Position numbers and translations under genes: made by a program. From IMG/VR virus record IMGVR_UViG_3300048919_000265: a stretch of DNA of 64,000 nt; one strand, 5' to 3'. This stretch comes from a virus. This document shows, in pieces, positions 10,191 through 47,630 of the stretch (the stretch's first letter is position 1; every line of letters starts with the position of its first letter). The notes under the pieces were generated by a model. The model did not search any database, was not told the DNA's origin, and saw only the letters and a program-made list of their open reading frames with translations.

Positions 10191-10833
10191 TCATCCAAAC
10201 CTCCTCGCCTCTGCATTTTGAGCTAAGGAAGTTAGACATATCACTAATCTCTAAAAATGGTAACTCTTTCTTCCACTCATTAGACCTAATATCTTCCAAT
10301 AGTCCAGGAGAAAAACTAAACGCTGCCATCTGGTAGCTAGTGCATTCTTCATACTCCTGTTTGCGGAAACTATCAAAATTCTTTTTAAAAACGTTCAGGT
10401 GATTCACATGCTGATTATAGACATCAAATTTCTTTTTGCCAGCCCTAACAATTGTTCCTCTATCTGTTATCCTTTTATCGCCAATGTACCCCTTACACTC
10501 AAATAAATATATTACTTGAGGTGTAAAAAGGATAAAATCTACTTCGGTTAAAAATTCAGTATCAGCTGTGTCTAAATCCTTCAACACTAACCCTTTCGCA
10601 TAAAACCATTTTTCAGTCAACTTTTGATTAAGATTCATAAACTCCAAGATAGCGATTTCCAATACTGTTTCGCAAACCTCACCCGCAACCGTATTCCTAG
10701 TCTTAACCCGAGGATCAGCCTTCTTTAATTCCTCAGATCCAATTATTTTACTAGCAAGTGAAACCGAAAAATTATACCCCCGGTCTCTATACACTTCCAA
10801 CAATGTTTCACGCGTCTTGTCCTTGAATAACAT
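10063..10833 (-). CDS. NERD-domain PD-(D/E)xK nuclease-like protein
   Basis: GEVCE...TEVDFILFTPQVIYLFECKGY...NQHVNHL, typical NERD motifs. Confidence 0.75.
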   Translation of the reverse strand: MLFKDKTRETLLEVYRDRGYNFSVSLASKIIGSEELKKADPRVKTRNTVAGEVCETVLEIAILEFMNLNQKLTEKWFYAKGLVLKDLDTADTEFLTEVDFILFTPQVIYLFECKGYIGDKRITDRGTIVRAGKKKFDVYNQHVNHLNVFKKNFDSFRKQEYEECTSYQMAAFSFSPGLLEDIRSNEWKKELPFLEISDMSNFLSSKCRGEEVWMIEYCKKAVELIQKDREFFVSKHLSYVTSLHHSKKPNLGSWKC

Positions 10834-12595
10834 CTAATACCCCCACAGATCTTATAAAGACCGAATTGCTGTCAACATCTAATTTGAGTGAATCAAATCC
10901 ATCCATTTGAATATTTTCTCTAGTAGCGTATTTAATTGCTGCATAAGATGCTAAAACTTTCGCTAGACTCCTATGTTTATTACTTGTATTAATAAATTTG
11001 AAGAACATAACTTCATCATAAAACTCTTCTCTAATCATGTCATTATAAATCACAACACCACGATAGCCTGCTTCCGCATATTGGTGCTGTACTTGTAATA
11101 CCTTCTGCTTTAGCACATTGACTATGTCTTCCTTGATAGTGCTATCTGCCAGAAAGTATGCAACCTCATTAGCCTTATCACTATAAATACTCAATACAGT
11201 CTTTTCACCAACAACTTCCGTTCCGGCATATAAGGTATATGTTTCTGGAACTGGCCAATACTCTTCCCCTGCTTCATCCGGAACACAGATACTTATCTTA
11301 TCTGCATTTGCAGTATAGCTAGCTTCTGCTAACTGTTGTAAATCAGTATCAACTTCTTTATAATAAGTACCGTACTCAAAAGATAGGGCAAGAGGTGTCC
11401 AATCATCAACAATAATCGAAGATGCTTGATTAAAAACCCAAGCGTCCTTAAGAACTTCTTTCTTCATCTTAAACACCGGCTCATCATGACGGACAATATA
11501 AAGGCTAACATCCTCTTTCGTGTATCCTAGATCGTAAAACATATCTAAGATGGCATTACAAGTTAAGATAACTATCTGACTTGTACCTGTTTGTACAGGC
11601 GTATTCAAACATTTATTTATAGCGTCTTTCTTTGTATACATAGTAACAGGCTGTTCATACCCAAAATACCCTGTAACAGGGATCATCAGCCCTAGATCAA
11701 AACAATCAGATATTCTACGATAATACTCCGAATATCTCGGACAGGTATCTAAATACTTAGCAAATCTTCCTATAAACTCTTGGTCTCGCGGTGTCTGTCC
11801 GTGTCTTTGTCCATACAAAGTTTGGAGCACGTTAACCTTATACAAATCTCTCTCTGCCATAAACTTGTCGTGATTATGCGGCACATTTTCCCACTCATCA
11901 AGGATTGCTGAAATACCCTCGTACTTATCATCATACTTATCCATGATAGGTCCATTCCAACTATCACGTAATAGTAGATTATACGCAATCCGTAAGTCAG
12001 ACTGTTCAAAATCTCCCCAAGCTAACACATATCCATCTTCGGCAGCATAACAGCTAGTGTACTCTCGGGGAATACTAACCAAGTCAGAATCATGATAATT
12101 AAATCTTAAGTTCTGCTGTTGCTCTGCTATAAAGTGTAACTTATACAAAGTTGAACCGGTAGAACTAACTTTATCTGATTCAGAAAATAACCGTGGCAAT
12201 TTTTCCATCCTTGCGCATCTTGATTTTAATGATGAGTAAGTCATATAATAACCCAAAAACTCCTGAGCATAACCATTCTCGTACAAAGGACCTAGCACTT
12301 TTTTCATATCCAGACTTGCGCGCTCCACACCTTTTTTACTGAACCGCTCGTATGGACATCCTTCTACATTCACCAAGTAAGGAAAGACTGACTCGGAGTT
12401 AAGACTATTATATTCATAACTAGAATTAGCAGCCATAGTTCTCTTTGCTAAAGTTAAATTAGTATCTCTTCTCGCCTCTTCGTGCTTTAGTGTCAGCATC
12501 AACTTATTCTTATCCACATAAACGAATTGCTCATGATTAATTCGTTCTAAATACAGATCTAAATCTATCATACTACTCCTAGTAAGCTTAAGCAT
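10808..12595 (-). CDS. Family A DNA polymerase-like protein lacking a 3'-5' exonuclease domain (595 aa)
   Basis: Motif A WGDFEQSDLRIA, motif B RDLYKVNVLQTLYG, motif C IVRHDEPVF, LNTPVQTG. No exo motifs N-terminally. Confidence 0.85.
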   Translation of the reverse strand: MLKLTRSSMIDLDLYLERINHEQFVYVDKNKLMLTLKHEEARRDTNLTLAKRTMAANSSYEYNSLNSESVFPYLVNVEGCPYERFSKKGVERASLDMKKVLGPLYENGYAQEFLGYYMTYSSLKSRCARMEKLPRLFSESDKVSSTGSTLYKLHFIAEQQQNLRFNYHDSDLVSIPREYTSCYAAEDGYVLAWGDFEQSDLRIAYNLLLRDSWNGPIMDKYDDKYEGISAILDEWENVPHNHDKFMAERDLYKVNVLQTLYGQRHGQTPRDQEFIGRFAKYLDTCPRYSEYYRRISDCFDLGLMIPVTGYFGYEQPVTMYTKKDAINKCLNTPVQTGTSQIVILTCNAILDMFYDLGYTKEDVSLYIVRHDEPVFKMKKEVLKDAWVFNQASSIIVDDWTPLALSFEYGTYYKEVDTDLQQLAEASYTANADKISICVPDEAGEEYWPVPETYTLYAGTEVVGEKTVLSIYSDKANEVAYFLADSTIKEDIVNVLKQKVLQVQHQYAEAGYRGVVIYNDMIREEFYDEVMFFKFINTSNKHRSLAKVLASYAAIKYATRENIQMDGFDSLKLDVDSNSVFIRSVGVLDVIQGQDA

Positions 12596-12604
12596 AGCTT
12601 CCTC

Positions 12605-13210
12605 CTAAACGGCTCTATCAGGTTTTAGTTGTACAAACTCCTTACGAAGTACACCTGCTAGTGCACGTTTTTCATCTATGAATCTTCTGTAATCTAAAAA
12701 AGCTGGTAGTTTATCCACTGTTAATATCCGATAATCTCTGTCTGTCTGAGCAAGTTTATACAGATCGGTTCCATGCACTACCAATTGTTTTTCGTTCTCA
12801 ACAACATACAGGACCTTGCCTTCCAAATACCAGGCATCTACATACTTACCATTCAGCTTCATCGTAAAGAATGCCCGTTCTCTAACAATTCTAAACAATT
12901 CTACAAATAATTGTGCGTCGAAATGTAAATTAGAATGTTGCTCTCTATAAATACTACCGTCAGAAGCAAAAGAAACTTGACTCCATTTAGTCATATTAAG
13001 ATATGGAGGTAAATTCAAACATTCTATATCCGTAATAGAATGAATTCCTTCCAGTTCCCCAACCGAAATTTTGACATCTATGCGATCGACATGAATATCA
13101 AATTTATAAATCCGATTACTCTTTGGATCTATTCCCTGCAGGCTTATGATGGACTTATTAACATTAAGAGACGCTAATTTTATAACCGATTTAAGAGTAT
13201 GCGCAAACAT
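12605..13210 (-). CDS. Hypothetical protein (201 aa)
   Basis: ORF in operon, RBS GGGGTGA. Confidence 0.75.
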   Translation of the reverse strand: MFAHTLKSVIKLASLNVNKSIISLQGIDPKSNRIYKFDIHVDRIDVKISVGELEGIHSITDIECLNLPPYLNMTKWSQVSFASDGSIYREQHSNLHFDAQLFVELFRIVRERAFFTMKLNGKYVDAWYLEGKVLYVVENEKQLVVHGTDLYKLAQTDRDYRILTVDKLPAFLDYRRFIDEKRALAGVLRKEFVQLKPDRAV

Positions 13211-13584
13211 TAAATCACCCCTTTAAACTTTTCCTTCACATTCAATCCCTGTTCATATATAAGGATGATATGCTCCGTAAAGCTGTTTTTAGAAACCGGG
13301 TTAAATAGTCTTGATTTAGCCACCGTGAAAACAAAATCTCCATTAATTTTCTTCCGAGGATACACGCACACACTTCCATTATACGTCACAACCCAACTAT
13401 CAATAACTTCATATCCATCATGATCTGACATACCAGTCTCAAGTGAATGTTTAAAAGCAGACAAACTTCTAGTATACTTTATCTTATAATTAACGGAACC
13501 ATCCAAAACATGCAATATTTCTTCCAACCGTTTATGATTAGGCTTGCTGATCTTTCCAGCAAGCAATGAAAATAAGCTAGCCAT
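13210..13584 (-). CDS. Hypothetical protein (124 aa)
   Basis: ORF with RBS AGGAGGAG. Confidence 0.75.
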   Translation of the reverse strand: MASLFSLLAGKISKPNHKRLEEILHVLDGSVNYKIKYTRSLSAFKHSLETGMSDHDGYEVIDSWVVTYNGSVCVYPRKKINGDFVFTVAKSRLFNPVSKNSFTEHIILIYEQGLNVKEKFKGVI

Positions 13585-13602: not shown

Positions 13603-15732
13603 TCACTCATCCATAAAAATCATCTTTTTAAACTTTAATGGTTCTTTAGATCCTTCCGCATACCGATCAAACAAAACTCCCAATTTACTACTTACAGTTT
13701 CTGGGAATTCTTCAGCACCCACCTTACGGGCTTGTGTATCTGTTACACCTTCCATAAGATAATACCGTATTCCACTAGCCAAGCCATTTAAATCTGTTAT
13801 AGTGGTAGTAGTCAATATGAATCGTATATTAGCCGCGGAACAGTCTTGCAATACCTTCTTAAAATTTTCTATTTTATTATTCTTAGAATCACGTCCCCAT
13901 CCAAGAACCTTGTCTAATCCAACAATCCAATTAAACACGGGCTTCAAATGGTTATATGTCATCATTTGATCTTTACAACCATTAGCTTCTGCTAATTTTA
14001 TATAATTAATAATTAACTTTTTGCGAGCCTCCAATAAATCTTCACCACTAAGGCCCCCTAACTTTAAACCTTGCACATAAGAATTCTCAGTACTCAGAGT
14101 TAAAACATGATAGCAACGATACCTATTTAACATAGTATCATAAGAAGATCCCTTATCAAAACACATATAGAAAATTGTGTCAGTATTATCATCAGTATGA
14201 CGTTGTTGAGAGAACACCTGTTCCTCGGCTTCCAGCGCTATTTTTCTATAATAGACTGCACCGAGATATGCAGTTATTGCAGGACTATCTGCATCCCTAC
14301 CATCTAGGATTTTAGGATTTAACTCTTCAAGACCTATTTTAGTGGTCACCTTTTTATCCGCAGAAATGACATTCACGAACACTGATGATCCCATAGCCTT
14401 AAGGTTCTCTTTAATCATTTTGGAGTACCTGACGACATTAAGAGAATTATCGCACCACACCATCATATTCTCTATCTCATCACCTGTAAATTCAAGTCTG
14501 ACATAGTTATCGTCATCTTTATCCCGCATAACAAACGATGGTTCCCCTAAATAAATCTTTTTGTTGCTTCCACCCTTAGAAGAAATAAGTTCTCTGAACT
14601 CTTCTTCATTCAACAAGGACTCTTCATTATAAAATGAGAATTTATGTCTAAACCCAACTTCTGTACCAATGCGATCCAGCTCCAATAGCATTTCTTTGAA
14701 TTCTTGATCCCCTTGGTATGGAACCCTATAATGCACATTATCTTTTTTATCTGCGTTACCTGGTTTAGTGTTTATAATTAATCGACCTTTGGCACCGAGA
14801 TTCATGTTAGCTTCGGTGTTACCAAGCAGTTTATTAGAAACATCAGGCATACATCCAAGTGCCATGCGAACGTTGATATTGTTCAACGTAGCAGTTGGTA
14901 TTTCCCCTGGTTCCTGTGAAGCCAACAACAAGTGATAACCTGTACTACGACCAAGACGGGCAAAATCATCCAAAAGGTCTTGAATTATTTTTGCTTTCTT
15001 AGCTGCATTTTTAAAGAGAGTTTGGAATTCGTCTACAACAATAAGATTACGCGGATAGTTTAAACCCGTGTACTCACGGAACTTTATTAAGTTATCTGTG
15101 CCACCATGCTCCGAAAACATAGCATTTACTTGTATCATCTCATCGCGCAATTCTGTGAGCACACTAATTATATATTCCGCATCAGTAGTTGCCGCTATAG
15201 ACGAAGTATGGGGAAGTATTCCTCCTGAAACCGCATACTTCTTAAAACCCGCTATCTTGGCATCTGCTAATGTGATCTTTAGCTCCCAAGGTGCGTACTT
15301 TAGTGCTAGTGCCTGTATAATACTATCAAGTAAAACAGATTTACCACCACCTGTCATGCCACCGGCAATGGCATGGATGTCCTTATCATTGAGTTCAGCA
15401 CTAGATGGATACCGGCTATCCCCATTTTTATAACCCAGTCCAAGAAGATTTATCCCCTTATGGGAATTACCCTCCCAAATTGGGAAATTATTTTTATACA
15501 GAATAGGGCCGTCAAAACGTAATATCCTCTCTGGCTCTGCATCTCCTTTTTTAAGTCTGCTAAGTGGTTTAGGAATCCTGACTTCTCTAGGATATTGACT
15601 TTCCTGAGAGTGTTTCAGAAAATACTTCGCTACAAACTCATCAAACATTAAGGGGGAAGAACCCCCACGTATAAAGTCTTCCTCTACCAACTTTGTTTGT
15701 TCTAAGATGCTAGTTTCATCAATGGAGTACAT
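13603..15732 (-). CDS. Soluble FtsK/SpoIIIE-family ATPase (EssC/EccC-like), one intact and one degenerate domain
   Basis: HAIAGGMTGGGKS (Walker A), LIVVDEFQTLF (Walker B), ARLGRSTGYHLLLASQ, NINVRMALG. No TM segment. Confidence 0.9.
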   Translation of the reverse strand: MYSIDETSILEQTKLVEEDFIRGGSSPLMFDEFVAKYFLKHSQESQYPREVRIPKPLSRLKKGDAEPERILRFDGPILYKNNFPIWEGNSHKGINLLGLGYKNGDSRYPSSAELNDKDIHAIAGGMTGGGKSVLLDSIIQALALKYAPWELKITLADAKIAGFKKYAVSGGILPHTSSIAATTDAEYIISVLTELRDEMIQVNAMFSEHGGTDNLIKFREYTGLNYPRNLIVVDEFQTLFKNAAKKAKIIQDLLDDFARLGRSTGYHLLLASQEPGEIPTATLNNINVRMALGCMPDVSNKLLGNTEANMNLGAKGRLIINTKPGNADKKDNVHYRVPYQGDQEFKEMLLELDRIGTEVGFRHKFSFYNEESLLNEEEFRELISSKGGSNKKIYLGEPSFVMRDKDDDNYVRLEFTGDEIENMMVWCDNSLNVVRYSKMIKENLKAMGSSVFVNVISADKKVTTKIGLEELNPKILDGRDADSPAITAYLGAVYYRKIALEAEEQVFSQQRHTDDNTDTIFYMCFDKGSSYDTMLNRYRCYHVLTLSTENSYVQGLKLGGLSGEDLLEARKKLIINYIKLAEANGCKDQMMTYNHLKPVFNWIVGLDKVLGWGRDSKNNKIENFKKVLQDCSAANIRFILTTTTITDLNGLASGIRYYLMEGVTDTQARKVGAEEFPETVSSKLGVLFDRYAEGSKEPLKFKKMIFMDE

Positions 15733-15734
15733 CT

Positions 15735-18365
15735 TTACTTTCCTCCTGCTCTTCGCTGCTTCTCCTCATTCCATATTTGGGCGAACATAGTTTTCAAATC
15801 CTTAGCTGCTTGCACACTGCTAAACCGAACTTGTGACTCTGCTTCCTTAAATTCCAGGACCTTAACAACCCAATCCAGAATGAGCGGTTCCAGGGATGAT
15901 AACGTATTTTGTGAAGGTCGAATGTTCTCCGGGACATCACTTGATCCACCAATAATATACTTTTTAACCCCATTAATTTCTCTACTTGCGAAACAGCCGA
16001 TAACCTTCCCATTGTGCGTAAAGGCTACCTTGTTATCCGTTTCTTGGAAATGTACTATAGAAGGGTGTGTTGTATCTTCAATCAGCTCAATTGGTTTATC
16101 TGACGCGGGTACCACTGATTCCTTCTCAACAGTATTAGTTACAATAGGCGCTTTGCTTTCTTCTATCTTTGTCTCAGTTGCACCAGCGAAAGAATTCATA
16201 CCAGCCAATCTAGACGCTATTCCCTCAGCAATGGCAGCACTCTTAGTTTCTTGCTCTACTGAGACATTACTCCACAATTGACCTTCGTTAACGTAACCAT
16301 TACTTAACATTGTTTCTAAGTAAATATTGGCGGACTCTGTCAATTGTACATCCTCCGACATAAATTCGATTTCTCGTTCATCGAATTTGGCAGAAGCCTT
16401 CAAAACGATAGGTGCAAGCAAAGTAGCAATATTAGTTCTGACGTAAAGTTCTTTGGGTACATTCGCAACCTCAGTCATCTTATACTGCAACTCTTCTTTA
16501 TTACGGAAGGCTAGCATTTCTCCCCATTTAGATAATTTAGTATCTGAATACAGATACTCAAACAATATACTTAGGGTGGACAAATTGCTAACACTATATT
16601 CTAATTTTAAACCTTTAACTGTATCAGACTCATAAAAAACAGCTTCCTTAGCGGTGGAAGCTTCTGCTGACTCATTTGCAAGTCGGAGAGCTATTTTGCT
16701 GTTAAGCACATCACTACCTGCATTAACAACTAATTTACCGTTGTTATACTCAATACCTTTAATCCAATCAGAGTTGTTTTCTTTCAGACGACTGATAACA
16801 TCAAGGAAACTCAAATAAACAACCTGTCTTGTTCCACCTTCAAAATATTTCTCACACGCGAGACCAATAGGAATGTTTATTTTTGCATTACTGATATTTA
16901 ACTTCTTTCTATACTCGAGGTCTCGGAATTTATCATCATACGTGATAACTCCCTTAATTCCCATCTCATATAAACCATCGATCAATACAGGCTTCATATT
17001 ACTAATATTGCCTGTATTGCTTCTTATGATGAATTTGTTCATATCTAAGTAGTTATTGAAGTCACCTAATTTAAGCACAGTTGGTTTCATTTCGCCCCAA
17101 CGGGATAATTTGATTATTGCTTCGACATGAGCAGCGAAACCCATGCCACCTTGCTCGGCAGCCAACATGATAAACTTATTAAGCAACAACGGTCCGTCTA
17201 CTATACCCGTACTTTGATTTGGGAAATACTCTGCGCTTCCATATTCTCCATCGGAAGATGCAGCTCTTTCATCATCCTCATCCTCATCCGCGTAAGACAA
17301 TGGGAAATTTCCACAATGCATCCAATTTAATGTGGAAACTCGGTTAACAAATTCAGACAATAATTCTACCATTCTAGGTGAAGCAACGCATCTAGAAAAT
17401 AGATCTTCTGGATTATGATCAGGGAAAGTCTGCTTAATATCAAACATAATCAATTCAGTCAGTGCATGCATAAAATCTTGCTCATTTGGTTGCACTTCTA
17501 AATCATTATTATCTACAGACCCCTCAACTAATCTGAAATCTATTCTCGGGATATCCTCTAATTCTTCCTTGGTAGGGTTTATCCCTAAAAGGGACGCAGC
17601 AGAAACTAACTGCTCTCTCATTTGACTTCTGTTATATCGGAAGATGTCCTTATAATAAGGAGTAAAATAAATAAAGTGTGGATAGGGTTTAGCTAAGTCT
17701 TTTCCAGTTGGGACGAGTTGCGCTATCGAAACATCCATACTTCGCAATCTATCATAAGAAGGCAGTTCCATAAAAAATGTATCATAGGGACTACGCATAA
17801 ATTGCGTCCTATTTATGTCTGAGCGAATATACTTAAACTGTGGCCCCATCTTACTGTTCCAGTCACGTACCGCAGGAATAGTAACTGCTGGATTTATGTA
17901 CGTCATTTCTGGAGCCAGCACTTTAAACTTTTCTTCGCCCTTGATATAATTGTCAAGTAATAAATAAGTCTCTTGAAACTTGATAACTACATCTGCATCA
18001 ATGCCTGTATTAGTAGACGATTTAGTTAATTGTGCTGCAATTTGGGACGCGTATTCTTTAGTAAAAGTAGGTTTGTTTTTACAAAAATTATACAACGTGG
18101 TTATATCCAACGTACCATTAGGACTACCTGAATCTGGGACAACCGATAATGGCAGTCCTGCTCCTAGGCGAGGTTCCTTTGCAGGGTCCAAAGTCGTAAT
18201 GTTTACACGCTCGCCATAAGTTTGTAAAGTAGTTAAAACTTGCTCCTTACCCAGCATCTCCCTAAAGTCTACCAAACGAACTTCTCCATCAATATTAACT
18301 TTACTCAGAAAAACTACATTCACTGAGCTTCCTTTATACAAAGGCAAAGGAACATAATAAAGCAC
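15735..18365 (-). CDS. Hypothetical protein (876 aa) inside the T7SS-like module
   Basis: Long ORF with RBS GAGGAGG, 2 nt from the ATPase start; no recognised domain. Confidence 0.8.
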   Translation of the reverse strand: MLYYVPLPLYKGSSVNVVFLSKVNIDGEVRLVDFREMLGKEQVLTTLQTYGERVNITTLDPAKEPRLGAGLPLSVVPDSGSPNGTLDITTLYNFCKNKPTFTKEYASQIAAQLTKSSTNTGIDADVVIKFQETYLLLDNYIKGEEKFKVLAPEMTYINPAVTIPAVRDWNSKMGPQFKYIRSDINRTQFMRSPYDTFFMELPSYDRLRSMDVSIAQLVPTGKDLAKPYPHFIYFTPYYKDIFRYNRSQMREQLVSAASLLGINPTKEELEDIPRIDFRLVEGSVDNNDLEVQPNEQDFMHALTELIMFDIKQTFPDHNPEDLFSRCVASPRMVELLSEFVNRVSTLNWMHCGNFPLSYADEDEDDERAASSDGEYGSAEYFPNQSTGIVDGPLLLNKFIMLAAEQGGMGFAAHVEAIIKLSRWGEMKPTVLKLGDFNNYLDMNKFIIRSNTGNISNMKPVLIDGLYEMGIKGVITYDDKFRDLEYRKKLNISNAKINIPIGLACEKYFEGGTRQVVYLSFLDVISRLKENNSDWIKGIEYNNGKLVVNAGSDVLNSKIALRLANESAEASTAKEAVFYESDTVKGLKLEYSVSNLSTLSILFEYLYSDTKLSKWGEMLAFRNKEELQYKMTEVANVPKELYVRTNIATLLAPIVLKASAKFDEREIEFMSEDVQLTESANIYLETMLSNGYVNEGQLWSNVSVEQETKSAAIAEGIASRLAGMNSFAGATETKIEESKAPIVTNTVEKESVVPASDKPIELIEDTTHPSIVHFQETDNKVAFTHNGKVIGCFASREINGVKKYIIGGSSDVPENIRPSQNTLSSLEPLILDWVVKVLEFKEAESQVRFSSVQAAKDLKTMFAQIWNEEKQRRAGGK

Positions 18366-18415
18366 ATTAATAGCCTCCTCATAATCCGATTAAAATCGTA
18401 CCCTAAATAACAATA

Positions 18416-18443
18416 GGGAGAGGCGCAAAATCGCACCCCTCCC
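18416..18443 (-). terminator. Intrinsic terminator after the two small helical-hairpin genes
   Basis: Minus strand GGGAGGGGTGC-GATTTT-GCGCCTCTCCC (11 bp with 2 G:U) followed by TATTGTTATTT. Confidence 0.65.
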
Positions 18444-18534
18444 CGGTCTTCCTTCCTATTCCCACAAGACAGTGGATAAGAGCTGTTCATGCCGTTAGCC
18501 TCCTTAATCTTGGCTAAACCAACACTACTAAATC

Positions 18535-18879
18535 TTACTGAATAACATCGGAAGCATCAAGCTTTGAACCCGAGAAACTCAGATCTTGCTTACTAACTTC
18601 CCCAACAGTAGCACGTTTTGCCAGCCATTCGGAAACATCATAAGCATTAGTAATATCTGAAACTACTTCCTGCACACCCTCACGGATGCTGTTATAGTTA
18701 TTCTGGAAATTAACACAGGCTTCCAAAACTTGCTCCGTCAAAGGATTATCATCCCCTGTATTTTTCATAAGGGCTGCCAACTCTTCAACACTATTAAGTA
18801 CGTCTTCATTCATATTCTTCATAATAATTCCCAAGCTATTATCCAACTTAGCAGAATCTAATTTAACTACTCCAGCCAT
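18535..18879 (-). CDS. WXG100-like helical hairpin protein (114 aa)
   Basis: Amphipathic helix, G/D/N/P turn at about 41-46, second helix, then Y80-D-V-S-E84; next to FtsK-domain genes. No canonical WxG. Confidence 0.6.
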   Translation of the reverse strand: MAGVVKLDSAKLDNSLGIIMKNMNEDVLNSVEELAALMKNTGDDNPLTEQVLEACVNFQNNYNSIREGVQEVVSDITNAYDVSEWLAKRATVGEVSKQDLSFSGSKLDASDVIQ

Positions 18880-18903
18880 TCTTAATTCCTCCTTTCTTTT
18901 CTA

Positions 18904-19167
18904 TTAGTTACCTGAAAATCCTTCAAGAGCTTTATAATGCCCGCTCCATGCATCCAATGCTTCAACCAGTTGGTTAACACTCTTAACAAAACCAGGAGAC
19001 GCTTGCTCCAAGTTAGATGTAGAAGCAATCAACTTAGCAACGTTAGAATCACGTCCAACCTCAACCGTGTTTTCAACGCCACGTTGCCAGTACGTAGTAA
19101 TCTCAGCTACTTGCTCAGAAGTTGATTTAACTTTATTAATGATATCAAAATTAACTGTATTTCCCAT
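18904..19167 (-). CDS. WXG100-like helical hairpin protein (87 aa)
   Basis: Start reassigned to ATG 19167 (RBS GGAGGTG). Helix-turn(G38)-helix with Y78-K-A-L-E82. No canonical WxG. Confidence 0.6.
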   Translation of the reverse strand: MGNTVNFDIINKVKSTSEQVAEITTYWQRGVENTVEVGRDSNVAKLIASTSNLEQASPGFVKSVNQLVEALDAWSGHYKALEGFSGN

Positions 19168-19226
19168 GTCCTTCACCTCCATTTCATTCATCTTAGTATA
19201 ATGCAAGCAAGCTTAAAAAGAAGGTT

Positions 19227-21008
19227 TTAATTTTTGAACTTATTCAACTCTTCTATGGCCCAGTCTCTAGCTTTAGTGCTCACTTTACCATTACTTATAG
19301 TGTAAATCATCACATTCTTCTCAAACAATGTAATATGAGACTTATTTAATCTCTCCATGGGCAAAAATAAATTTGTAAATAATCCAATAGCAGGACCAAC
19401 ACTAATCATTTGATTAAACAATTCATCATTAAGCAAACTGTCTGACAAGTCTAAAACAAAAGTGAAGAAGTAAGACTCCGGTAAGCTATCTAATGACAAC
19501 ATAACTTCATTATACGCGGTGAGGTTTTTATATTCTTTAATAACTATCTCATTACGCTTAATAATTAGGTCATTCATTTCCTCTAATGTTGCAGTTATAT
19601 CTTGCTGACTTGCAATAATCTTAAACAAATCTGGTTCATTAATGACAAACCTTGTAAAATTAACACCCATTTTTTCTTTATCCCATAGCCTTAGCCTTAG
19701 GCTATGAGGATTCATACGCACCCGTAATTGCACAAGTAGTAACTTTATAAAATCATAAACGGTTTCCGCTTCATCCTCATTATATAGGAAAATGCATGAC
19801 TGTTCTTCCGGATATTCAAACATAACAGGCTTATCATCTTTAATATCCAACAAAAATATACGATCCAAAATTGCTTGCTTCTCCATTTTAGTTAAGTCGA
19901 AGAATCTACTTTTTATATCTTCCACTTCCGCACTCAACGAACGCTCTAATTCCGCTAATTCATCTTTGATCAATTCCATAGCGGAAAGGCTCTTTCGGAT
20001 GGTTTCCTCTAAAACCGTTCTCCTGCTTTCCATTTCAGCAATAGTCGTTTGAGCAGTTTTTTCTAATGTAGATGCATCAAATTTAAAGCTAACAATGGCT
20101 TGTGTCCTAGCACTTGATATCTCGTCCTCTGCAAGGAGTAACTCTTGTAACGCCGCCTCTTTACTATCCGCAAAGTTTAATTCCATTGCCTGCAATTTTG
20201 CGGAAAACTCCTCCTTAGCTAATTCTCTCATCTGTGTTTCATACAACTCAAGGTTGTCCGACACTGCTTTATACTCTATTAAAGTCCTGGAATATAAAGC
20301 TCCCAACTTCACGTTTCTAAAAGCCGTGTAAAATAAGAAACTCAAATAAATAGGAAATGTGATCCAAGCAGTAGCTATCACTAAAACTGACAAAACTGCT
20401 GTCAATATGAGGGCACCCTTGGCATCACCTTTTATCTTTTCAGAACTGAAAGATCTTATAGCATCCTCTAACTTTTCTATTAAAGAAAGTCTCTCTTTCC
20501 TTTGGACTTGTTCAATTCTTTCCTTTAATGAATTGAAATTGGACAACAACGTTTGTATATCAGAGTCACTCAAGATAATAGTCGAAGAATTCAATTGCTT
20601 AACATACACATCAGCAAAACGAGAACCAATATCTCGACTTATCATTTCCTTAACTTCTAAACTTGACTCCTTTATTTCGAGCAAAGTTTTATTCTCGCTA
20701 GCCAGGCTATCATAGATATTATTTTCATCCAGAGAGTCCTTAGCTCTTCTGTACTGCTCCTCTAGTTCCTGTAAATCGTGGGCTACCTTGTCTCTCCGTG
20801 CTTGAGCCGAAATGGTGCTTTCACGCAAGTATCTTTCCTTCTCTAGTTGCTCGTTTTCTTCTATATCAAGCGCCAACTGTTGCTTAACCTGATTGATACT
20901 GCTGTCTATAACAGCGAGATCATCTTTACAACTCTGAATCTTCCTAGAATGCGTTATTTTTTCCCTCGTCTTTAATTTTATTTCTTCTTTTATGTTTTCA
21001 TAGCTCAT
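19227..21008 (-). CDS. Membrane-anchored coiled-coil protein with a degenerate C-terminal FtsK-like domain (EccCa/EssC N-part-like)
   Basis: Long coiled coils flanking a hydrophobic segment (ALILTAVLSVLVIATAWITFPIYLSFLFYTAF). The C-terminal ITATLEEMNDLIIKRNE...YKNLTAYNE...LPESYFFTFVLD follows the FtsK domain pattern but has no Walker A. Confidence 0.65.
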   Translation of the reverse strand: MSYENIKEEIKLKTREKITHSRKIQSCKDDLAVIDSSINQVKQQLALDIEENEQLEKERYLRESTISAQARRDKVAHDLQELEEQYRRAKDSLDENNIYDSLASENKTLLEIKESSLEVKEMISRDIGSRFADVYVKQLNSSTIILSDSDIQTLLSNFNSLKERIEQVQRKERLSLIEKLEDAIRSFSSEKIKGDAKGALILTAVLSVLVIATAWITFPIYLSFLFYTAFRNVKLGALYSRTLIEYKAVSDNLELYETQMRELAKEEFSAKLQAMELNFADSKEAALQELLLAEDEISSARTQAIVSFKFDASTLEKTAQTTIAEMESRRTVLEETIRKSLSAMELIKDELAELERSLSAEVEDIKSRFFDLTKMEKQAILDRIFLLDIKDDKPVMFEYPEEQSCIFLYNEDEAETVYDFIKLLLVQLRVRMNPHSLRLRLWDKEKMGVNFTRFVINEPDLFKIIASQQDITATLEEMNDLIIKRNEIVIKEYKNLTAYNEVMLSLDSLPESYFFTFVLDLSDSLLNDELFNQMISVGPAIGLFTNLFLPMERLNKSHITLFEKNVMIYTISNGKVSTKARDWAIEELNKFKN

Positions 21009-21646
21009 GTATAGATCATCTTCTTGTTACTGTATAACAAATACCATACCAAAAAAACATCATACAGAGCATTATGAGTAACATGCGCACTAGCATCATA
21101 ATTTACGAGTTTACAAAACTCTACGTATTTCTGTTTTATAGCAGCAGGACTATCTTTAGCCTTCAGTCTAATTAATTGCTCTAATTTAACAACCTTACCA
21201 TAATTAAGAGCCTTAGCTAGCATCTGCATGGCACATAGATTGTATCGTCCCTTAGTCAAACCTCTTTTGAGAGTTTCAATCTTATCCCCGAATTTAATAG
21301 TATCAAGACCTTGCAACGCTAAAGTATTATTAACTGCCCTAGAATCGAAGTTGTGATTATAGGTGATACTTATCATGTCAGGTAGCTCGAGAATTGAATT
21401 GCCATTAATTTGAATCTTATCCAATACGTCTTCTAAAAATTCACCACCCGATAACTTTAGAAGCAATTCTTTATTTAAGCCATGAACTGCCTCTGCTCCA
21501 AGGGCTATACTTGAATTTGTATAGCAATAACGATTAAATGCAAATTGAGCTTTCAAGTTAATATCCGTAACAATACCGGCTATTTGGATCACTTCAGCAT
21601 TCCCGTTTTTATCCGTAGTCTCCGTATCCCATATAACAAGCTTCAT
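21005..21646 (-). CDS. DEDDh (DnaQ-like) 3'-5' exonuclease
   Basis: VIWDTETT, AEAVHGL, YNHNFDSRAV, HNALYDV. Confidence 0.9.
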   Translation of the reverse strand: MKLVIWDTETTDKNGNAEVIQIAGIVTDINLKAQFAFNRYCYTNSSIALGAEAVHGLNKELLLKLSGGEFLEDVLDKIQINGNSILELPDMISITYNHNFDSRAVNNTLALQGLDTIKFGDKIETLKRGLTKGRYNLCAMQMLAKALNYGKVVKLEQLIRLKAKDSPAAIKQKYVEFCKLVNYDASAHVTHNALYDVFLVWYLLYSNKKMIYT

Positions 21647-47360: not shown

Positions 47361-47630
47361 CTATTTAAACCAGCTGAAAAATTTCTTAGCTGGTTTCAAA
47401 CCTTGTACAAAAAATTCACCATCTTCAATAGATCCCAACACAGTCTGATAACATTTCAGTTCACGTGGGGAAAGAGTACTCTTACGCGACATATTATAAA
47501 GTTTTCGTTTATGCACAATAAAAATAATAGAAGAACTTCCAAATTTAGCTACAACACCTTTGATCATAAACAAGCCTTCCTCCAATCTAGGGCTGGAAAT
47601 AAAATTATCCTTCCCAGCCCTAAAATTCAT
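47361..47630 (-). CDS. Hypothetical protein (89 aa)
   Basis: ORF in operon. Confidence 0.65.
   Translation of the reverse strand: MNFRAGKDNFISSPRLEEGLFMIKGVVAKFGSSSIIFIVHKRKLYNMSRKSTLSPRELKCYQTVLGSIEDGEFFVQGLKPAKKFFSWFK

What the first reader, a model, noticed from the sequence alone, without database searches (positions are those of the whole stretch)
13603..21008. Minimal type VII secretion-like module on a giant mobile element
Seen, in transcription order: a TM/coiled-coil protein with a degenerate FtsK domain; two helical hairpins of about 90-110 aa with YxxxE; a terminator; an 876-aa unknown; a soluble FtsK ATPase with an EssC/EccC-like GRSxGxHLLLAxQ. Established: a WXG100 pair plus an FtsK-domain ATPase is the conserved core of T7SS, and plasmid-borne ESX systems in mycobacteria are linked to conjugation. 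The Bacillota T7SSb accessory genes (EsaA, EssA, EssB, EsaB) and the EccB/D/MycP genes are not recognisable here. Inference: a stripped-down, possibly undescribed T7SS variant that exports protein or mediates element transfer. This is my best candidate for a novel system in the window.
Basis: partly seen in the sequence, partly recalled or inferred. Interest (0 to 1): 0.9.

Follow-up and report, generated by a model that had tools for sequence, protein, structure and literature searches.

The report
Type VII-like ATPase module, giant element
A conserved five-gene block on a family of giant clostridial mobile elements is built like the motor and substrate pair of a type VII secretion system, but it belongs to a separate, undescribed lineage, and whether it moves protein or DNA is untested.

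Summary
All five minus-strand genes, the terminator and the quoted motifs are at the stated coordinates.

- **The 709-aa ATPase:** It models confidently as two tandem FtsK-like domains, one active and one with a dead P-loop. Only the multi-domain T7SS ATPases EccC and EssC align with it over its whole length. FtsK and TcpA match the first domain only.
- **The 593-aa protein:** It has coiled coil, a membrane segment, coiled coil, and a C-terminal FtsK-fold domain with no Walker A.
- **The two small proteins:** These are 87 aa (corrected start) and 114 aa. They are distant paralogues with a predicted extended helical heterodimer (ipSAE 0.74, best control 0.26).
- **Membership is not met:** There is no Pfam WXG100 hit and no conserved WxG. 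Yxxx[D/E] occurs in only 10 of 24 orthologues. No EsaA/EssA/EssB or EccB/D/MycP was recognised. The active domain forms its own clade, and AU tests reject both an EssC/EccC and an FtsK/TcpA grouping.
- **Conservation:** The block keeps the same order in about 45 relatives on 160–310 kb (some larger) contigs from Lachnospiraceae, other Clostridia and Paraclostridium. It always sits between a DnaQ-like exonuclease gene and a PolA-like polymerase gene.
- **The 876-aa protein:** It has no recognisable fold.

Best reading (about 0.5): a split, minimal T7SS-like protein translocase. Main rival (about 0.27): a DNA translocase. The scan found this stretch before only on this same DNA.

The parts
19227..21008 (-). 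593-aa membrane partner. N-terminal coiled coil; a hydrophobic segment at residues 194-227 (probably a tight two-helix hairpin around a conserved K/R-x-x-F-P-x-Y); a second coiled coil; and a C-terminal FtsK-fold pseudo-ATPase domain (375-593) without Walker A.
   Evidence: Sequence and hydropathy. Alignment of 23 orthologues, A5. ESM-Atlas structural matches TM 0.71-0.79 to FtsK_SpoIIIE clusters. hhalign against the p709 domains is not significant. It is homologous to the 607-aa partner of the chromosomal cousins (hhalign prob 85%, E 6e-6).
18904..19167 (-). 87-aa small helical protein ('p100'; the listed ORF extends to 19206 from a TTG). It has a central G-S-x-K turn, and a C-terminal Y-x-x-x-D/E in 10 of 24 orthologues.
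   Evidence: GGAGGTGAAGGAC RBS before the ATG at 19167. Alignment A3. Motif counts. No Pfam family recurs across members. Predicted heterodimer with the next gene's product.
18535..18879 (-). 114-aa small helical protein ('p114'). It has an invariant N63 in an FQxxYN motif and a conserved, apparently free C-terminal tail (G-E-V ... D-T-S-F ... I-D).
   Evidence: Alignment A4. It is a distant paralogue of p100 (hhalign prob 87.6%, E 3.5e-6). In the predicted complex, interface residues 7-80 touch p100 and residues 81-114 lie outside the interface.
18415..18444 (-). Intrinsic-terminator-like hairpin directly after the small-gene pair.
   Evidence: Stem of 13 pairs (8 G-C), loop of 4, then ATTGTTATTT.
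15735..18365 (-). 876-aa conserved protein of unknown fold. Its stop overlaps the start of the ATPase gene (15732-15735), so the two are probably translationally coupled.
   Evidence: No family hit. AF2 model pLDDT 80, pTM 0.42. No significant structural match in the PDB, the Atlas or BFVD. Residues 765-873 weakly resemble the C-terminal domain of phi29 gp16 (Z 6.3, below the tool's trust level of 8). Present in all relatives but absent from the chromosomal cousins.
13603..15732 (-). 709-aa soluble tandem FtsK-like ATPase. Domain 1 (about 95-385) has invariant Walker A (G125, G128, G130-K131-S132), Walker B (D234-E235), R262, Q273 and R289. Domain 2 (about 386-709) has the same fold but no P-loop.
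   Evidence: Pfam. Invariant columns of 38 orthologues. AF2 model pLDDT 90.9. Foldseek: EccC 4nh0 E 6.9e-21 over 689 columns and EssC D2-D3 over about 650, against FtsK/TcpA over about 280-300. VIA Z-scores. Tree and AU tests.
12605..13584 (-). Variable slot downstream of the ATPase (genes of 124 and 201 aa here). It lies outside the finding's coordinates.
   Evidence: The distance between the ATPase gene and the polymerase-like gene ranges from 6 bp to about 1.85 kb among relatives. These two genes are found in only one or two of eight relatives.

Best explanation
The block encodes a split, minimal type VII-like protein-translocation machine of a lineage of its own.

Proposed mechanism (inferred from the anatomy):
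1. The 593-aa protein anchors the machine in the membrane. It contributes the membrane helices and a non-catalytic FtsK-fold domain.
2. The soluble 709-aa protein docks on it. It supplies one working ATPase domain and one degenerate domain that would serve as the substrate receptor, as D2/D3 do in EccC/EssC.
3. The two small, strongly expressed helical proteins form an Esx-like heterodimer. The dimer would be the exported substrate, or an adaptor recognised through the free C-terminal tail of p114 or the C-terminal Y-x-x-x-D/E end of p100.
4. The 876-aa protein, translationally coupled to the ATPase, is a lineage-specific accessory or cargo.

Shown: the folds, the domain order, the catalytic residues under conservation, the predicted heterodimer, the synteny and the separate phylogenetic position.

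Inferred: membrane assembly, the contact between the 593-aa and 709-aa proteins, substrate recognition, export, and any role in spreading the element.
For: - The p709 model is confident (pLDDT 90.9). Only the multi-domain T7SS ATPases align over its whole length: EccC 4nh0 E 6.9e-21 over 689 columns, EccC D2-D3 4n1a over 655, EssC D2-D3 4lya over 656 and 5fv0 over 649. FtsK and TcpA cover about 280-300 columns. By VIA, EccC aligns 526 residues (model 25-709) at Z 29.8.
- One live and one dead P-loop domain sit in one chain. A third dead FtsK-fold domain is on the membrane partner. One sub-clade has a fourth, as a separate gene. This repeats the EccC/EssC logic of one motor plus regulatory pseudo-ATPases.
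- By sequence, the best solved relatives are EccC (2.2e-18), EccC5 and YukB; FtsK reaches 1.8e-6. NCBIfam gives EssC 8.8e-19 and EccCa 8.8e-18, against FtsK 1.8e-4.
- The small proteins are adjacent paralogues without signal peptides, with strong RBSs and their own terminator.
- Predicted heterodimer: ipSAE 0.74, best of 3 controls 0.26. That mark was reached by 58 of 80 solved complexes and 2 of 110 mismatched pairs. The runs agree in at least 94% of contacts, and the partner's pLDDT is at least 68. The interface runs along residues 4-77 and 7-80, as expected for two helical hairpins packed side by side.
- The pairing of a p593-like membrane protein with a p709-like ATPase also occurs in small chromosomal islands. 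These carry a ~244-aa helical protein and variable downstream genes and have no replication genes nearby.
- The best plasmid relative of the ATPase lies four genes from an annotated WXG100 gene.
Against: - The active domain is not an EssC/EccC orthologue. It forms its own clade, and a clade with EssC/EccC is rejected (p-AU 3.6e-5).
- As a single domain it is at least as close in shape to the FtsK motor (Z 29-31, 22-23% identity) and to TcpA (Z 25) as to EccC domains.
- The EssC model of NCBIfam scores chromosomal FtsK higher than it scores this family (about 107-111 against 45-80 bits). The E-value ranking therefore discriminates poorly.
- The small proteins have no WXG100 sequence signal and no conserved WxG. 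Yxxx[DE] is found in under half of the orthologues. Their hairpin fold was not modelled on its own.
- No other membrane component is recognisable.
- The block always sits between replication genes.
- The 876-aa protein shows faint nucleic-acid-type resemblances.
- No expression or secretion data exist.
Confidence: 0.5

Rival explanations
1. The block is a DNA translocase, not a protein exporter. The 593-aa and 709-aa proteins would form a membrane-anchored FtsK-type pump that moves the element's DNA. The target could be a recipient cell (as TraB of Streptomyces plasmids or TcpA/TcpB of pCW3 do), a daughter cell or forespore, or a particle. The 876-aa protein would be the DNA-recognition subunit.
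For: - Domain 1 superposes best on FtsK motor domains (Z 31.3 over 289 residues, 22% identity) and well on the coupling protein TcpA (Z 25).
- pCW3 also has a membrane FtsK-like protein followed by a second, soluble one, and carries a SpaA adhesin and a sortase. A relative of this element carries large SpaA-type and SLH surface proteins.
- In four relatives the element-bearing contigs gave no Pfam hit for VirD4 or for AAA_10, a VirB4-type conjugation ATPase family, nor for terminase, capsid or portal. No other candidate DNA motor is therefore in view.
- The block lies between exonuclease and polymerase genes.
- The C-terminal domain of the 876-aa protein weakly resembles the C-terminal domain of phi29-type packaging ATPases, and its N-terminus weakly resembles homeodomain-like helix-turn-helix folds.
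Against: - A clade of domain 1 with FtsK, TcpA/B and the phage FtsK-like protein is rejected (p-AU 2.3e-4).
- There is no FtsK gamma or other DNA-binding domain on p709.
- Among the solved structures found, tandem arrays of live and dead FtsK domains occur only in T7SS ATPases.
- This reading gives no role to the conserved, strongly expressed pair of small helical proteins.
- The chromosomal cousins lack the 876-aa gene and lie next to housekeeping genes.
- All resemblances of the 876-aa protein fall below the tools' trust levels (Z 6.3; Foldseek E above 0.1).
Confidence: 0.27
2. The block is a conflict or defence-type NTPase system carried by the element. A FtsK/HerA-like ATPase with small helical partners would sense or attack competing elements, as FtsK-like components do in the Ssp, MADS and other systems.
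For: - PADLOC: SspH E 7.4e-14, mads_8 2.4e-10 and weak HerA hits, all on domain 1.
- The closest plasmid relatives sit beside VWA, CARF, kinase/phosphatase and TerD genes.
- The chromosomal cousins look like small islands with variable downstream genes.
- There is a variable slot next to the ATPase gene.
Against: - The block is a fixed core feature. It has the same place and order in about 45 relatives down to 20% identity, which is unlike accessory defence cargo.
- The PADLOC hits cover only the generic P-loop domain.
- No nuclease or other effector domain is recognisable in the five proteins.
Confidence: 0.13
3. The block is a membrane tether or assembly chaperone for the element's replication or partition machinery. 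The ATPase would remodel protein complexes rather than translocate anything across the membrane.
For: Fixed position between the exonuclease and polymerase genes. The membrane partner is rich in coiled coil.
Against: The chromosomal cousins have no replication genes nearby. FtsK-fold hexameric motors of known function are translocases (established knowledge of the FtsK-HerA superfamily; Iyer et al. 2004, as cited in PMC7824862).
Confidence: 0.1

Closest known systems
EccC / EssC (YukB) ATPases of type VII secretion systems (T7SSa of Actinomycetota, T7SSb of Bacillota)
   Same: FtsK/SpoIIIE-fold P-loop domains in tandem, with one catalytic domain and degenerate ones. Anchored through two membrane helices next to a non-catalytic ATPase-like domain. 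These are the best full-length structural matches and the best sequence matches among solved structures. The genes lie next to a pair of small helical proteins.
   Different: Here the machine is split into a membrane protein (TM plus one dead domain) and a soluble protein (one live plus one dead domain). That gives three FtsK-fold domains instead of four, with a fourth as a separate gene in one sub-clade. There is no FHA domain. The active domain lies outside the EssC/EccC clade. A real EssC (1680-aa frame, 812 bits) exists elsewhere in the assembly (a MAG) that carries one relative and is clearly distinct.
WXG100 proteins (EsxA/EsxB, ESAT-6/CFP-10)
   Same: About 90-115 aa, helical, without signal peptides. 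Two adjacent paralogous genes with a predicted heterodimer along the full helices. A C-terminal Yxxx[D/E] is present in some copies of one partner, and the other partner has a free C-terminal tail.
   Different: No PF06013 hit in any of 46 orthologues. The W-x-G turn motif is absent; the turn motif is G-S-x-K in one and a gap-rich N/G/D-rich stretch in the other. Yxxx[D/E] is not conserved.
Plasmid-borne ESX systems linked to conjugation in mycobacteria (pRAW-type ESX-P; from my own knowledge of Ummels et al. 2014 and Gray et al. 2016, not read here)
   Same: A type VII-like module carried as part of a large mobile element. One example locus with EccB, EccC, PE/PPE, two WXG100 genes and EspG on a 380-kb plasmid was seen.
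   Different: Those are complete T7SSa systems with EccB/C/D/E and MycP and canonical WXG100 substrates. Here only the ATPase logic and a helical pair are present.
TcpA/TcpB coupling proteins of Clostridium perfringens pCW3, and FtsK/SpoIIIE/TraB DNA translocases
   Same: FtsK-fold motor, 21-24% identity and Z 25-31 over the first domain. On pCW3 a membrane-bound FtsK-like protein is followed by a soluble one.
   Different: Those have a single motor domain per chain and no degenerate tandem domain. A clade with them is rejected. p709 has no gamma/winged-helix domain.
Uncharacterised FtsK-like ATPase islands of Clostridia (loci L150-L161, L272; no published name known to me)
   Same: They have a homologous membrane pseudo-ATPase partner (prob 85%) and 36-38% identity over the ATPase's first domain. 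In the unrooted tree their ATPase clade, like the element's, lies outside the grouping of FtsK, TcpA and EssC/EccC. A helical protein is encoded between the two genes.
   Different: These are chromosomal, with one ~244-aa helical protein instead of two small ones and no 876-aa gene. They have variable downstream genes, including a small two-TM protein.

Membership tests
Type VII secretion ATPase EssC/EccC | Several FtsK/SpoIIIE-type P-loop domains in tandem, only part of them catalytic | tested here: met
   The AF2 model has two FtsK-fold domains in p709. EccC and EssC multi-domain structures align over 650-689 columns. Walker A/B is invariant in domain 1 only. A third dead domain sits on p593.
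Type VII secretion ATPase EssC/EccC | All domains and the two membrane helices in one polypeptide (or the EccCa/EccCb split after D1) | tested here: not met
   The split lies before the active domain: p593 carries the TM segment plus a dead domain, and p709 is soluble. There are three FtsK-fold domains rather than four.
Type VII secretion ATPase EssC/EccC | Phylogenetic placement of the catalytic domain within the EssC/EccC clade, or a score above the NCBIfam cut-offs | tested here: not met
   It forms a separate clade (SH-aLRT 99), and the clade with EssC/EccC is rejected (p-AU 3.6e-5). Scores are 66.7 bits against a cut-off of 778 for TIGR03928 and 64.4 against 509 for TIGR03924. Caveats: the tree was a quick search and the groups were named after seeing it.
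WXG100 (PF06013) | Match to the family profile | tested here: not met
   No PF06013 hit in the window copies, nor among the family matches listed for the 24 + 22 orthologues even at E up to 10. Profile searches of the PDB give only designed helical bundles.
WXG100 (PF06013) | W-x-G motif in the turn between the two helices | tested here: not met
   WxG is present only in the window's p100, near its C-terminus rather than in the turn. It is absent from the other 23 p100 and from all 22 p114 orthologues.
WXG100 (PF06013) | About 100 aa, helix-turn-helix hairpin, forming homo- or heterodimeric four-helix bundles | tested here: inconclusive
   The size fits. The heterodimer prediction passes (0.74 against 0.26) with an interface along both halves of each chain.
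T7SS substrates (general) | C-terminal Y-x-x-x-D/E export motif | tested here: inconclusive
   Present in the window copies. Found in 10 of 24 p100 orthologues and 5 of 22 p114 orthologues.
T7SSb (Bacillota) / T7SSa (Actinomycetota) core apparatus | EsaA, EssA, EssB, EsaB/YukD, or EccB, EccD, EccE, MycP | tested here: not met
   No Pfam or NCBIfam match for any of these in the five genes or in the ten neighbouring genes tested, nor among the listed family matches of the other window ORFs of 70 aa or more, apart from the ORFs at 47620-50001 and 50564-58012 scanned. Very divergent analogues cannot be excluded.
FtsK/SpoIIIE/TraB/TcpA DNA translocases | Single alpha-beta motor domain with own membrane anchor and, in FtsK, a gamma DNA-recognition domain; placement in that clade | tested here: not met
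   No FtsK_gamma and no TM segment in p709. A second tandem domain is present. The clade with FtsK/TcpA is rejected (p-AU 2.3e-4). The fold of domain 1 alone is very close to FtsK (Z 31).
FtsK/SpoIIIE/TraB/TcpA DNA translocases | DNA-dependent ATPase and translocation activity | not testable with these tools
   This needs biochemistry.

The most novel reading that the evidence does not exclude
This is a third, minimal class of type VII-like secretion machine. It has a membrane pseudo-ATPase, a soluble tandem ATPase and an Esx-like heterodimer without WXG. It evolved separately from T7SSa and T7SSb and is a core gene set of a so far undescribed family of giant, self-transcribing clostridial elements. 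It exports element proteins and is needed for cell-to-cell spread of the element.
Probability: 0.25. Interest if true: 0.85.

Novelty: new variant of a known kind. Interest (0 to 1): 0.62.

Why it matters
If it exports protein, it shows how small a type VII-like machine can be: two membrane helices per protomer, one live ATPase domain and two dead ones. It would also give a third lineage for comparison with the two studied ones, which bears on how T7SS channels and substrate recognition work.

It is also one of the few functional leads on a large, apparently undescribed family of 160-310 kb elements of Lachnospiraceae, other Clostridia and Paraclostridium. These carry their own fused beta-beta' RNA polymerase and replisome. 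In the four relatives tested, the element-bearing contigs lack recognisable capsid, portal, terminase, VirB4 and VirD4 genes.

Relatives occur in cultured isolates: Paraclostridium bifermentans UT300012, Lachnospiraceae bacterium 47-T17 and Acetivibrio ethanolgignens ACET-33324. The question can therefore be tested at the bench.

Tried and rejected
- **No DNA relatives in plasmids or phages.** Megablast of the block against PLSDB plasmids and GenBank phages found nothing. No full-length relative was found in IMG/VR or in phage records.
- **No whole genome is held for the window**.
- **Profile comparisons between the domains failed.** p593 against p709, and p709 domain 1 against domain 2, were not significant. 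The relationships rest on structure only.
- **Profile searches of the PDB with the small-protein alignments** returned only designed or coiled-coil helical proteins. EsxAB of T. curvata (4lws, identified from memory) appears at E 0.22, which I give no weight. One orthologue hits YwqH-like at E 0.011, also given no weight.
- **The 876-aa protein** had no usable ESM-Atlas feature hit and no significant hit in Foldseek PDB, the Atlas shape search or BFVD. By VIA wide, the best match is Z 6.3 to the phi29 gp16 C-terminal domain, below the tool's trust level.
- **Phage or plasmid?** Scanning 127 proteins of a relative through the alignment route showed only the 25 top families and did not settle it. 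Targeted searches for Terminase_6N, AAA_10, VirD4, HK97 capsid and portal hit other contigs of the four assemblies, never the element contigs. Absence at Pfam sensitivity is not proof. The ESM Atlas labels about half of the recorded members of the p593 orthologue clusters as viruses. I could not reconcile this.
- **Hodor megaplasmids** (PMC12934698) were considered and rejected as the same thing. They have 45-47% GC, exceed 300 kb, carry VirB4/VirD4, and the text does not mention 'RNA polymerase' or 'FtsK'. pMMCAT (PMC12056005) is a Bacteroidales plasmid.
- **A possible C-terminal export tag.** Other first-stage notes reported an M-x-x-F C-terminal tag. Only the RNA polymerase of this window ends that way, and none of 163 ORFs of a relative does. 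I dropped the idea.
- **The ~244-aa helical protein of the chromosomal cousins** as a fusion of the two small proteins: only weak repeated hits with clean profiles (best whole-sequence E 0.0018 in a tiny database; hhalign negative). This is unresolved.
- **Sequencing runs:** only one DNA holder (a root metagenome, probably the source) and no RNA holder was listed.
- **Literature searches** for a phage- or element-borne EssC-like system, or for giant clostridial elements with a fused RNA polymerase, found nothing relevant.

Full report
**1. What is there**

The window (about 36% GC, strongly negative GC skew throughout) carries some sixty co-oriented minus-strand genes. The finding covers exactly five of them.

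*The 593-aa protein.*
- It begins with about 190 residues of coiled-coil-like sequence. One long hydrophobic stretch follows (194-227), then a second coiled coil and a C-terminal domain.
- In 23 orthologues the hydrophobic stretch is interrupted by a conserved K/R-x-x-F-P-x-Y.
- I read this as a tight two-helix membrane hairpin, which would leave both ends in the cytoplasm. This is inference.
- The C-terminal domain (375-593) has no GK[ST] loop. Profile comparison with the ATPase fails.
- The ESM Atlas holds a model of this very protein. Its residues 375-593 superpose on FtsK_SpoIIIE proteins with TM 0.71-0.79 by query.

*The two small genes.*
- The RBS and the orthologues place the first start at the ATG at 19167, giving 87 aa rather than 100.
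- The second gene (114 aa) has an AAAGGAGG RBS. It is followed by the best terminator-like hairpin of the region, at 18444-18415.

*The 876-aa gene.* It starts at a GTG behind GAGGAGG, and its stop overlaps the ATG of the last gene.

*The 709-aa protein.* It has a Pfam FtsK_SpoIIIE domain (1.9e-17) and no TM segment. It contains the LGRSTGYHLLLASQ stretch, which aligns with the same stretch of T. curvata EccC.

**2. Is it conserved?**

The ATPase has about 75 full-length relatives at 31-54% identity, mostly on contigs of 160-310 kb. The window's own contig is 212,527 bp.

Named sources are Lachnospiraceae (bacterium 47-T17, Wujia sp., Acetivibrio ethanolgignens), uncultured Clostridia and Paraclostridium bifermentans. 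Many more come from human-gut and other metagenomes. The single public run that holds the window's DNA is a root metagenome.

In every locus with enough flank (about 45), the order is the same. It runs DnaQ-like exonuclease, 593, 87, 114, 876, 709, a variable gap, then a 595-aa gene. The 593- and 876-aa proteins keep only 20-35% identity.

The 595-aa protein carries family-A polymerase motifs (weak phrog_17 hit). The block therefore sits between a separate 'exo' gene and a 'pol' gene. Synteny is real, but it is not specific to the block, because the neighbours are just as fixed.

**3. The ATPase**

*Catalytic residues.* Thirty-eight orthologues keep the following invariant: G125, G128, G130-K131-S132, D234-E235, R262, Q273 and R289. 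Domain 1 is thus a working P-loop ATPase under constraint.

*Model.* The AlphaFold model is confident (pLDDT 90.9, pTM 0.84). It shows a second alpha/beta domain (about 386-709) with no P-loop.

*Foldseek ranking.*
- EccC cytoplasmic domain 4nh0: E 6.9e-21, 689 columns.
- EccC D2-D3 4n1a: 655 columns.
- EssC D2-D3 4lya and 5fv0: about 650 columns.
- FtsK and TcpA: E about 1e-13, over only 280-300 columns.

*VIA-align second look.* This adds a caveat. As a single domain, the first domain is closest to FtsK motors (Z 29-31, 22-23% identity). It is also close to TcpA (Z 25) and to EccCb1-D2 (Z 25.9). EccC aligns 526 residues across both domains (Z 29.8).

*Sequence scores.* These favour T7SS ATPases:
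- PDB: EccC 2.2e-18 and YukB 9.5e-11, against FtsK 1.8e-6.
- NCBIfam: EssC 8.8e-19 and EccCa 8.8e-18, against FtsK 1.8e-4.

However, the EssC model scores chromosomal FtsK proteins even higher than it scores this family. I give that ranking little weight.

*Tree.* It used 52 FtsK-type domains:
- the element family;
- the chromosomal cousins;
- a true EssC from the assembly that carries one relative;
- an Enterococcus plasmid EssC-like protein;
- a mycobacterial plasmid EccC;
- 13 FtsK proteins;
- TcpA and TcpB;
- a Bacillus phage FtsK-like protein;
- others.

The element family forms a clade of its own (SH-aLRT 99). It lies outside both the EssC/EccC D1+D2 clade (97) and the FtsK+TcpA clade (88).

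*AU tests.* Forcing it into one clade with EssC/EccC costs 49 log-likelihood units (p-AU 3.6e-5). Forcing it together with the DNA translocases costs 48 (p-AU 2.3e-4).

Caveats: the tree was a quick search, the groups were named after seeing it, and branches are long.

Conclusion: the protein is built like EssC/EccC but is not one of them, and it is not an FtsK or TcpA either.

One sub-clade of elements has an extra 330-345-aa gene between the 876-aa gene and the ATPase gene. It is a paralogue of domain 1 with a dead P-loop. This again follows the T7SS habit of adding pseudo-ATPase domains.

**4. The small proteins**

Neither the window copies nor any of 46 orthologues hit Pfam WXG100. PDB profile searches return only generic helical bundles.

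The WSG of the window's 87-aa protein is unique to it. Yxxx[D/E] is found near the C-terminus in 10 of 24 orthologues of the 87-aa protein, and in 5 of 22 orthologues of the 114-aa protein.

What is conserved:
- a G-S-x-K turn in the 87-aa family;
- an invariant Asn in FQxxYN in the 114-aa family;
- a C-terminal tail G-E-V...D-T-S-F...I-D in the 114-aa family.

The two families are distant paralogues (hhalign prob 87.6%, E 3.5e-6). Helical composition may inflate this.

The complex prediction supports binding. The score is 0.74 and the best of three controls is 0.26. That mark was reached by 58 of 80 solved complexes and 2 of 110 mismatched pairs. The runs agree in at least 94% of contacts, and the partner's pLDDT is at least 68.

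My own alignments were used, so those counts hold only roughly. A pass may also reflect likeness to solved Esx dimers.

The interface runs through residues 4-77 of one chain and 7-80 of the other. The last 34 residues of the 114-aa protein are left free. That is the geometry of an EsxA-EsxB bundle with a free signal tail. The hairpin fold itself was not modelled separately.

**5. The 876-aa protein**

The model is fair (pLDDT 80, pTM 0.42). Nothing significant matches it in the PDB, BFVD or the Atlas.

Its last domain (765-873; four strands, helix, strand, helix) weakly recalls the C-terminal domain of phi29-type packaging ATPases. This recurred in four searches:
- VIA: Z 6.3, 5.8 and 5.1.
- Foldseek PDB: prob 0.3-0.5.
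- BFVD (CpV1 encapsidation protein): prob 0.8, E 0.13.
- An Atlas cluster in which 20% of members carry Podovirus_Gp16.

All of these are below the levels the tools advise trusting. The N-terminus gives homeodomain-like rows at Z about 4. I treat these as faint hints of nucleic-acid binding and no more.

**6. Context**

The window also encodes:
- a fused beta-beta' RNA polymerase;
- PolA, primase, ligase, and Mre11/Rad50-like and NERD proteins;
- a FabG-like reductase, a permease and an LRR protein.

In four assemblies that hold relatives, Pfam models for terminase, HK97 capsid, portal, AAA_10 (VirB4-type) and VirD4 hit other contigs. They never hit the element contigs (contig numbers).

A fully fetched relative contig (196 kb, 31% GC, 146 of 163 ORFs on one strand) carries the following:
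- large SpaA-type and SLH surface proteins, Fic, Hsp70 and sigma-factor-like proteins, and three integrases;
- MutS-MutL and a class A PBP.

That copy is therefore probably integrated. Other contigs reach 450-670 kb. Large adhesins with a sortase also accompany the tcp conjugation locus of pCW3.

I therefore regard the host as a giant integrative or plasmid-like element rather than a tailed phage, but this is not settled. The Atlas labels about half of the recorded members of the p593 orthologue clusters as viruses.

**7. Relatives outside the element**

A second group of ATPases shares 36-38% identity over domain 1. These lie in small chromosomal islands next to aconitase, threonine synthase or SAM synthetase genes.

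The gene upstream encodes a 600-800-aa membrane protein homologous to the C-terminal half of p593 (prob 85%, E 6e-6). Between the two lies a ~244-aa helical protein. Downstream genes vary and include a small two-TM protein.

The pair 'membrane pseudo-ATPase plus soluble ATPase plus helical protein' is therefore a unit that exists apart from the element's replication genes.

The best plasmid relative of domain 1 is on Caballeronia pSBC2-5. It lies four genes from an annotated WXG100 gene, among VWA, CARF and kinase/phosphatase genes. A Rhodococcus relative lies next to TerD genes.

**8. Weighing**

For a T7SS-like protein translocase:
- the tandem live/dead domain logic;
- the membrane pseudo-ATPase partner;
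- the paralogous, strongly expressed, signal-less helical pair with a predicted bundle and a free tail;
- the cousins with variable downstream genes.

Against it, or for a DNA pump:
- the separate phylogenetic position;
- the FtsK-like shape of domain 1;
- the replication-gene neighbourhood;
- the faint resemblances of the 876-aa protein;
- the absence of any other recognisable DNA-transfer motor on the element;
- the lack of any further membrane component.

My probabilities are about 0.5 for protein translocation, 0.27 for DNA translocation, 0.13 for a conflict system and 0.1 for a tether or chaperone.

The two leading readings are not mutually exclusive at the level of biology. Mycobacterial conjugation needs ESX systems (from my own knowledge).

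**9. Novelty**

I found no description of this module or of the element family in the literature searched. The Hodor megaplasmids differ.

The scan had noted this stretch before only on this same DNA.

I class it as a new variant of a known kind. It is type VII-like in construction, but it fails the membership tests for T7SSa, T7SSb and WXG100.

Noticed in passing
window 50564-58012 (-): A single 2482-aa frame holds RNA polymerase beta domains (Rpb2_6 E 4.4e-50) followed by beta' domains (Rpb1_2 to Rpb1_5). This is a fused beta-beta' polymerase on the element. A relative has a 2586-aa counterpart.
   Followed up: partly
window 10808-12595 (-) and 21005-21646 (-): The 595-aa protein has family-A polymerase motifs (DFEQSDLRIAY, YKVNVLQTLYGQ, VRHDEP) but no exonuclease domain. 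A DnaQ-like exonuclease is a separate gene 8.4 kb upstream. The five-gene block lies between them in all relatives.
   Followed up: partly
L096-L107, L122, L123 (for example L099:9911-10915): A sub-clade of elements has an extra 330-345-aa gene between the 876-aa gene and the ATPase gene. It is a paralogue of ATPase domain 1 with a dead P-loop (GCSSGGNAYAAL).
   Followed up: partly
L150-L161 (for example L159:7104-14171), L272: Chromosomal islands in Clostridia, beside housekeeping genes, encode a p593-like membrane protein, a ~244-aa helical protein, a 745-1020-aa related ATPase and variable downstream genes. This is an uncharacterised system in its own right.
   Followed up: partly
window 12605-13584 (-) and the same place in relatives: The gap between the ATPase gene and the polymerase-like gene varies from 6 bp to about 1.85 kb among relatives and holds unrelated small genes. 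It is a variable slot, reminiscent of the variable region downstream of essC.
   Followed up: no
L250-L259 (G004:C1, 196 kb): The relative's contig carries MutS-MutL, a class A PBP, fatty-acid synthesis genes, TGT and three tyrosine integrases besides the element genes. The element is therefore probably integrated there. Other contigs with the block reach 450-670 kb.
   Followed up: partly
L244 (Caballeronia sp. SBC2 plasmid pSBC2-5): The closest plasmid relative of ATPase domain 1 sits in a locus with an annotated WXG100 gene, two VWA proteins, a CARF protein, a PP2C phosphatase, a Ser/Thr kinase and an AAA protein. This is an FtsK-WXG100 association in a proteobacterium, outside canonical T7SS.
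   Followed up: no
L140 (VOFD01002852.1): One metagenomic copy of the whole block is broken into many short ORFs. It is either a decayed element or an error-rich assembly.
   Followed up: no
window 18535-19167 (-): By eye, the two small genes prefer GTT, GCT, CGT, GGT and ACT codons and have strong RBSs, which suggests high expression. This was not quantified.
   Followed up: no
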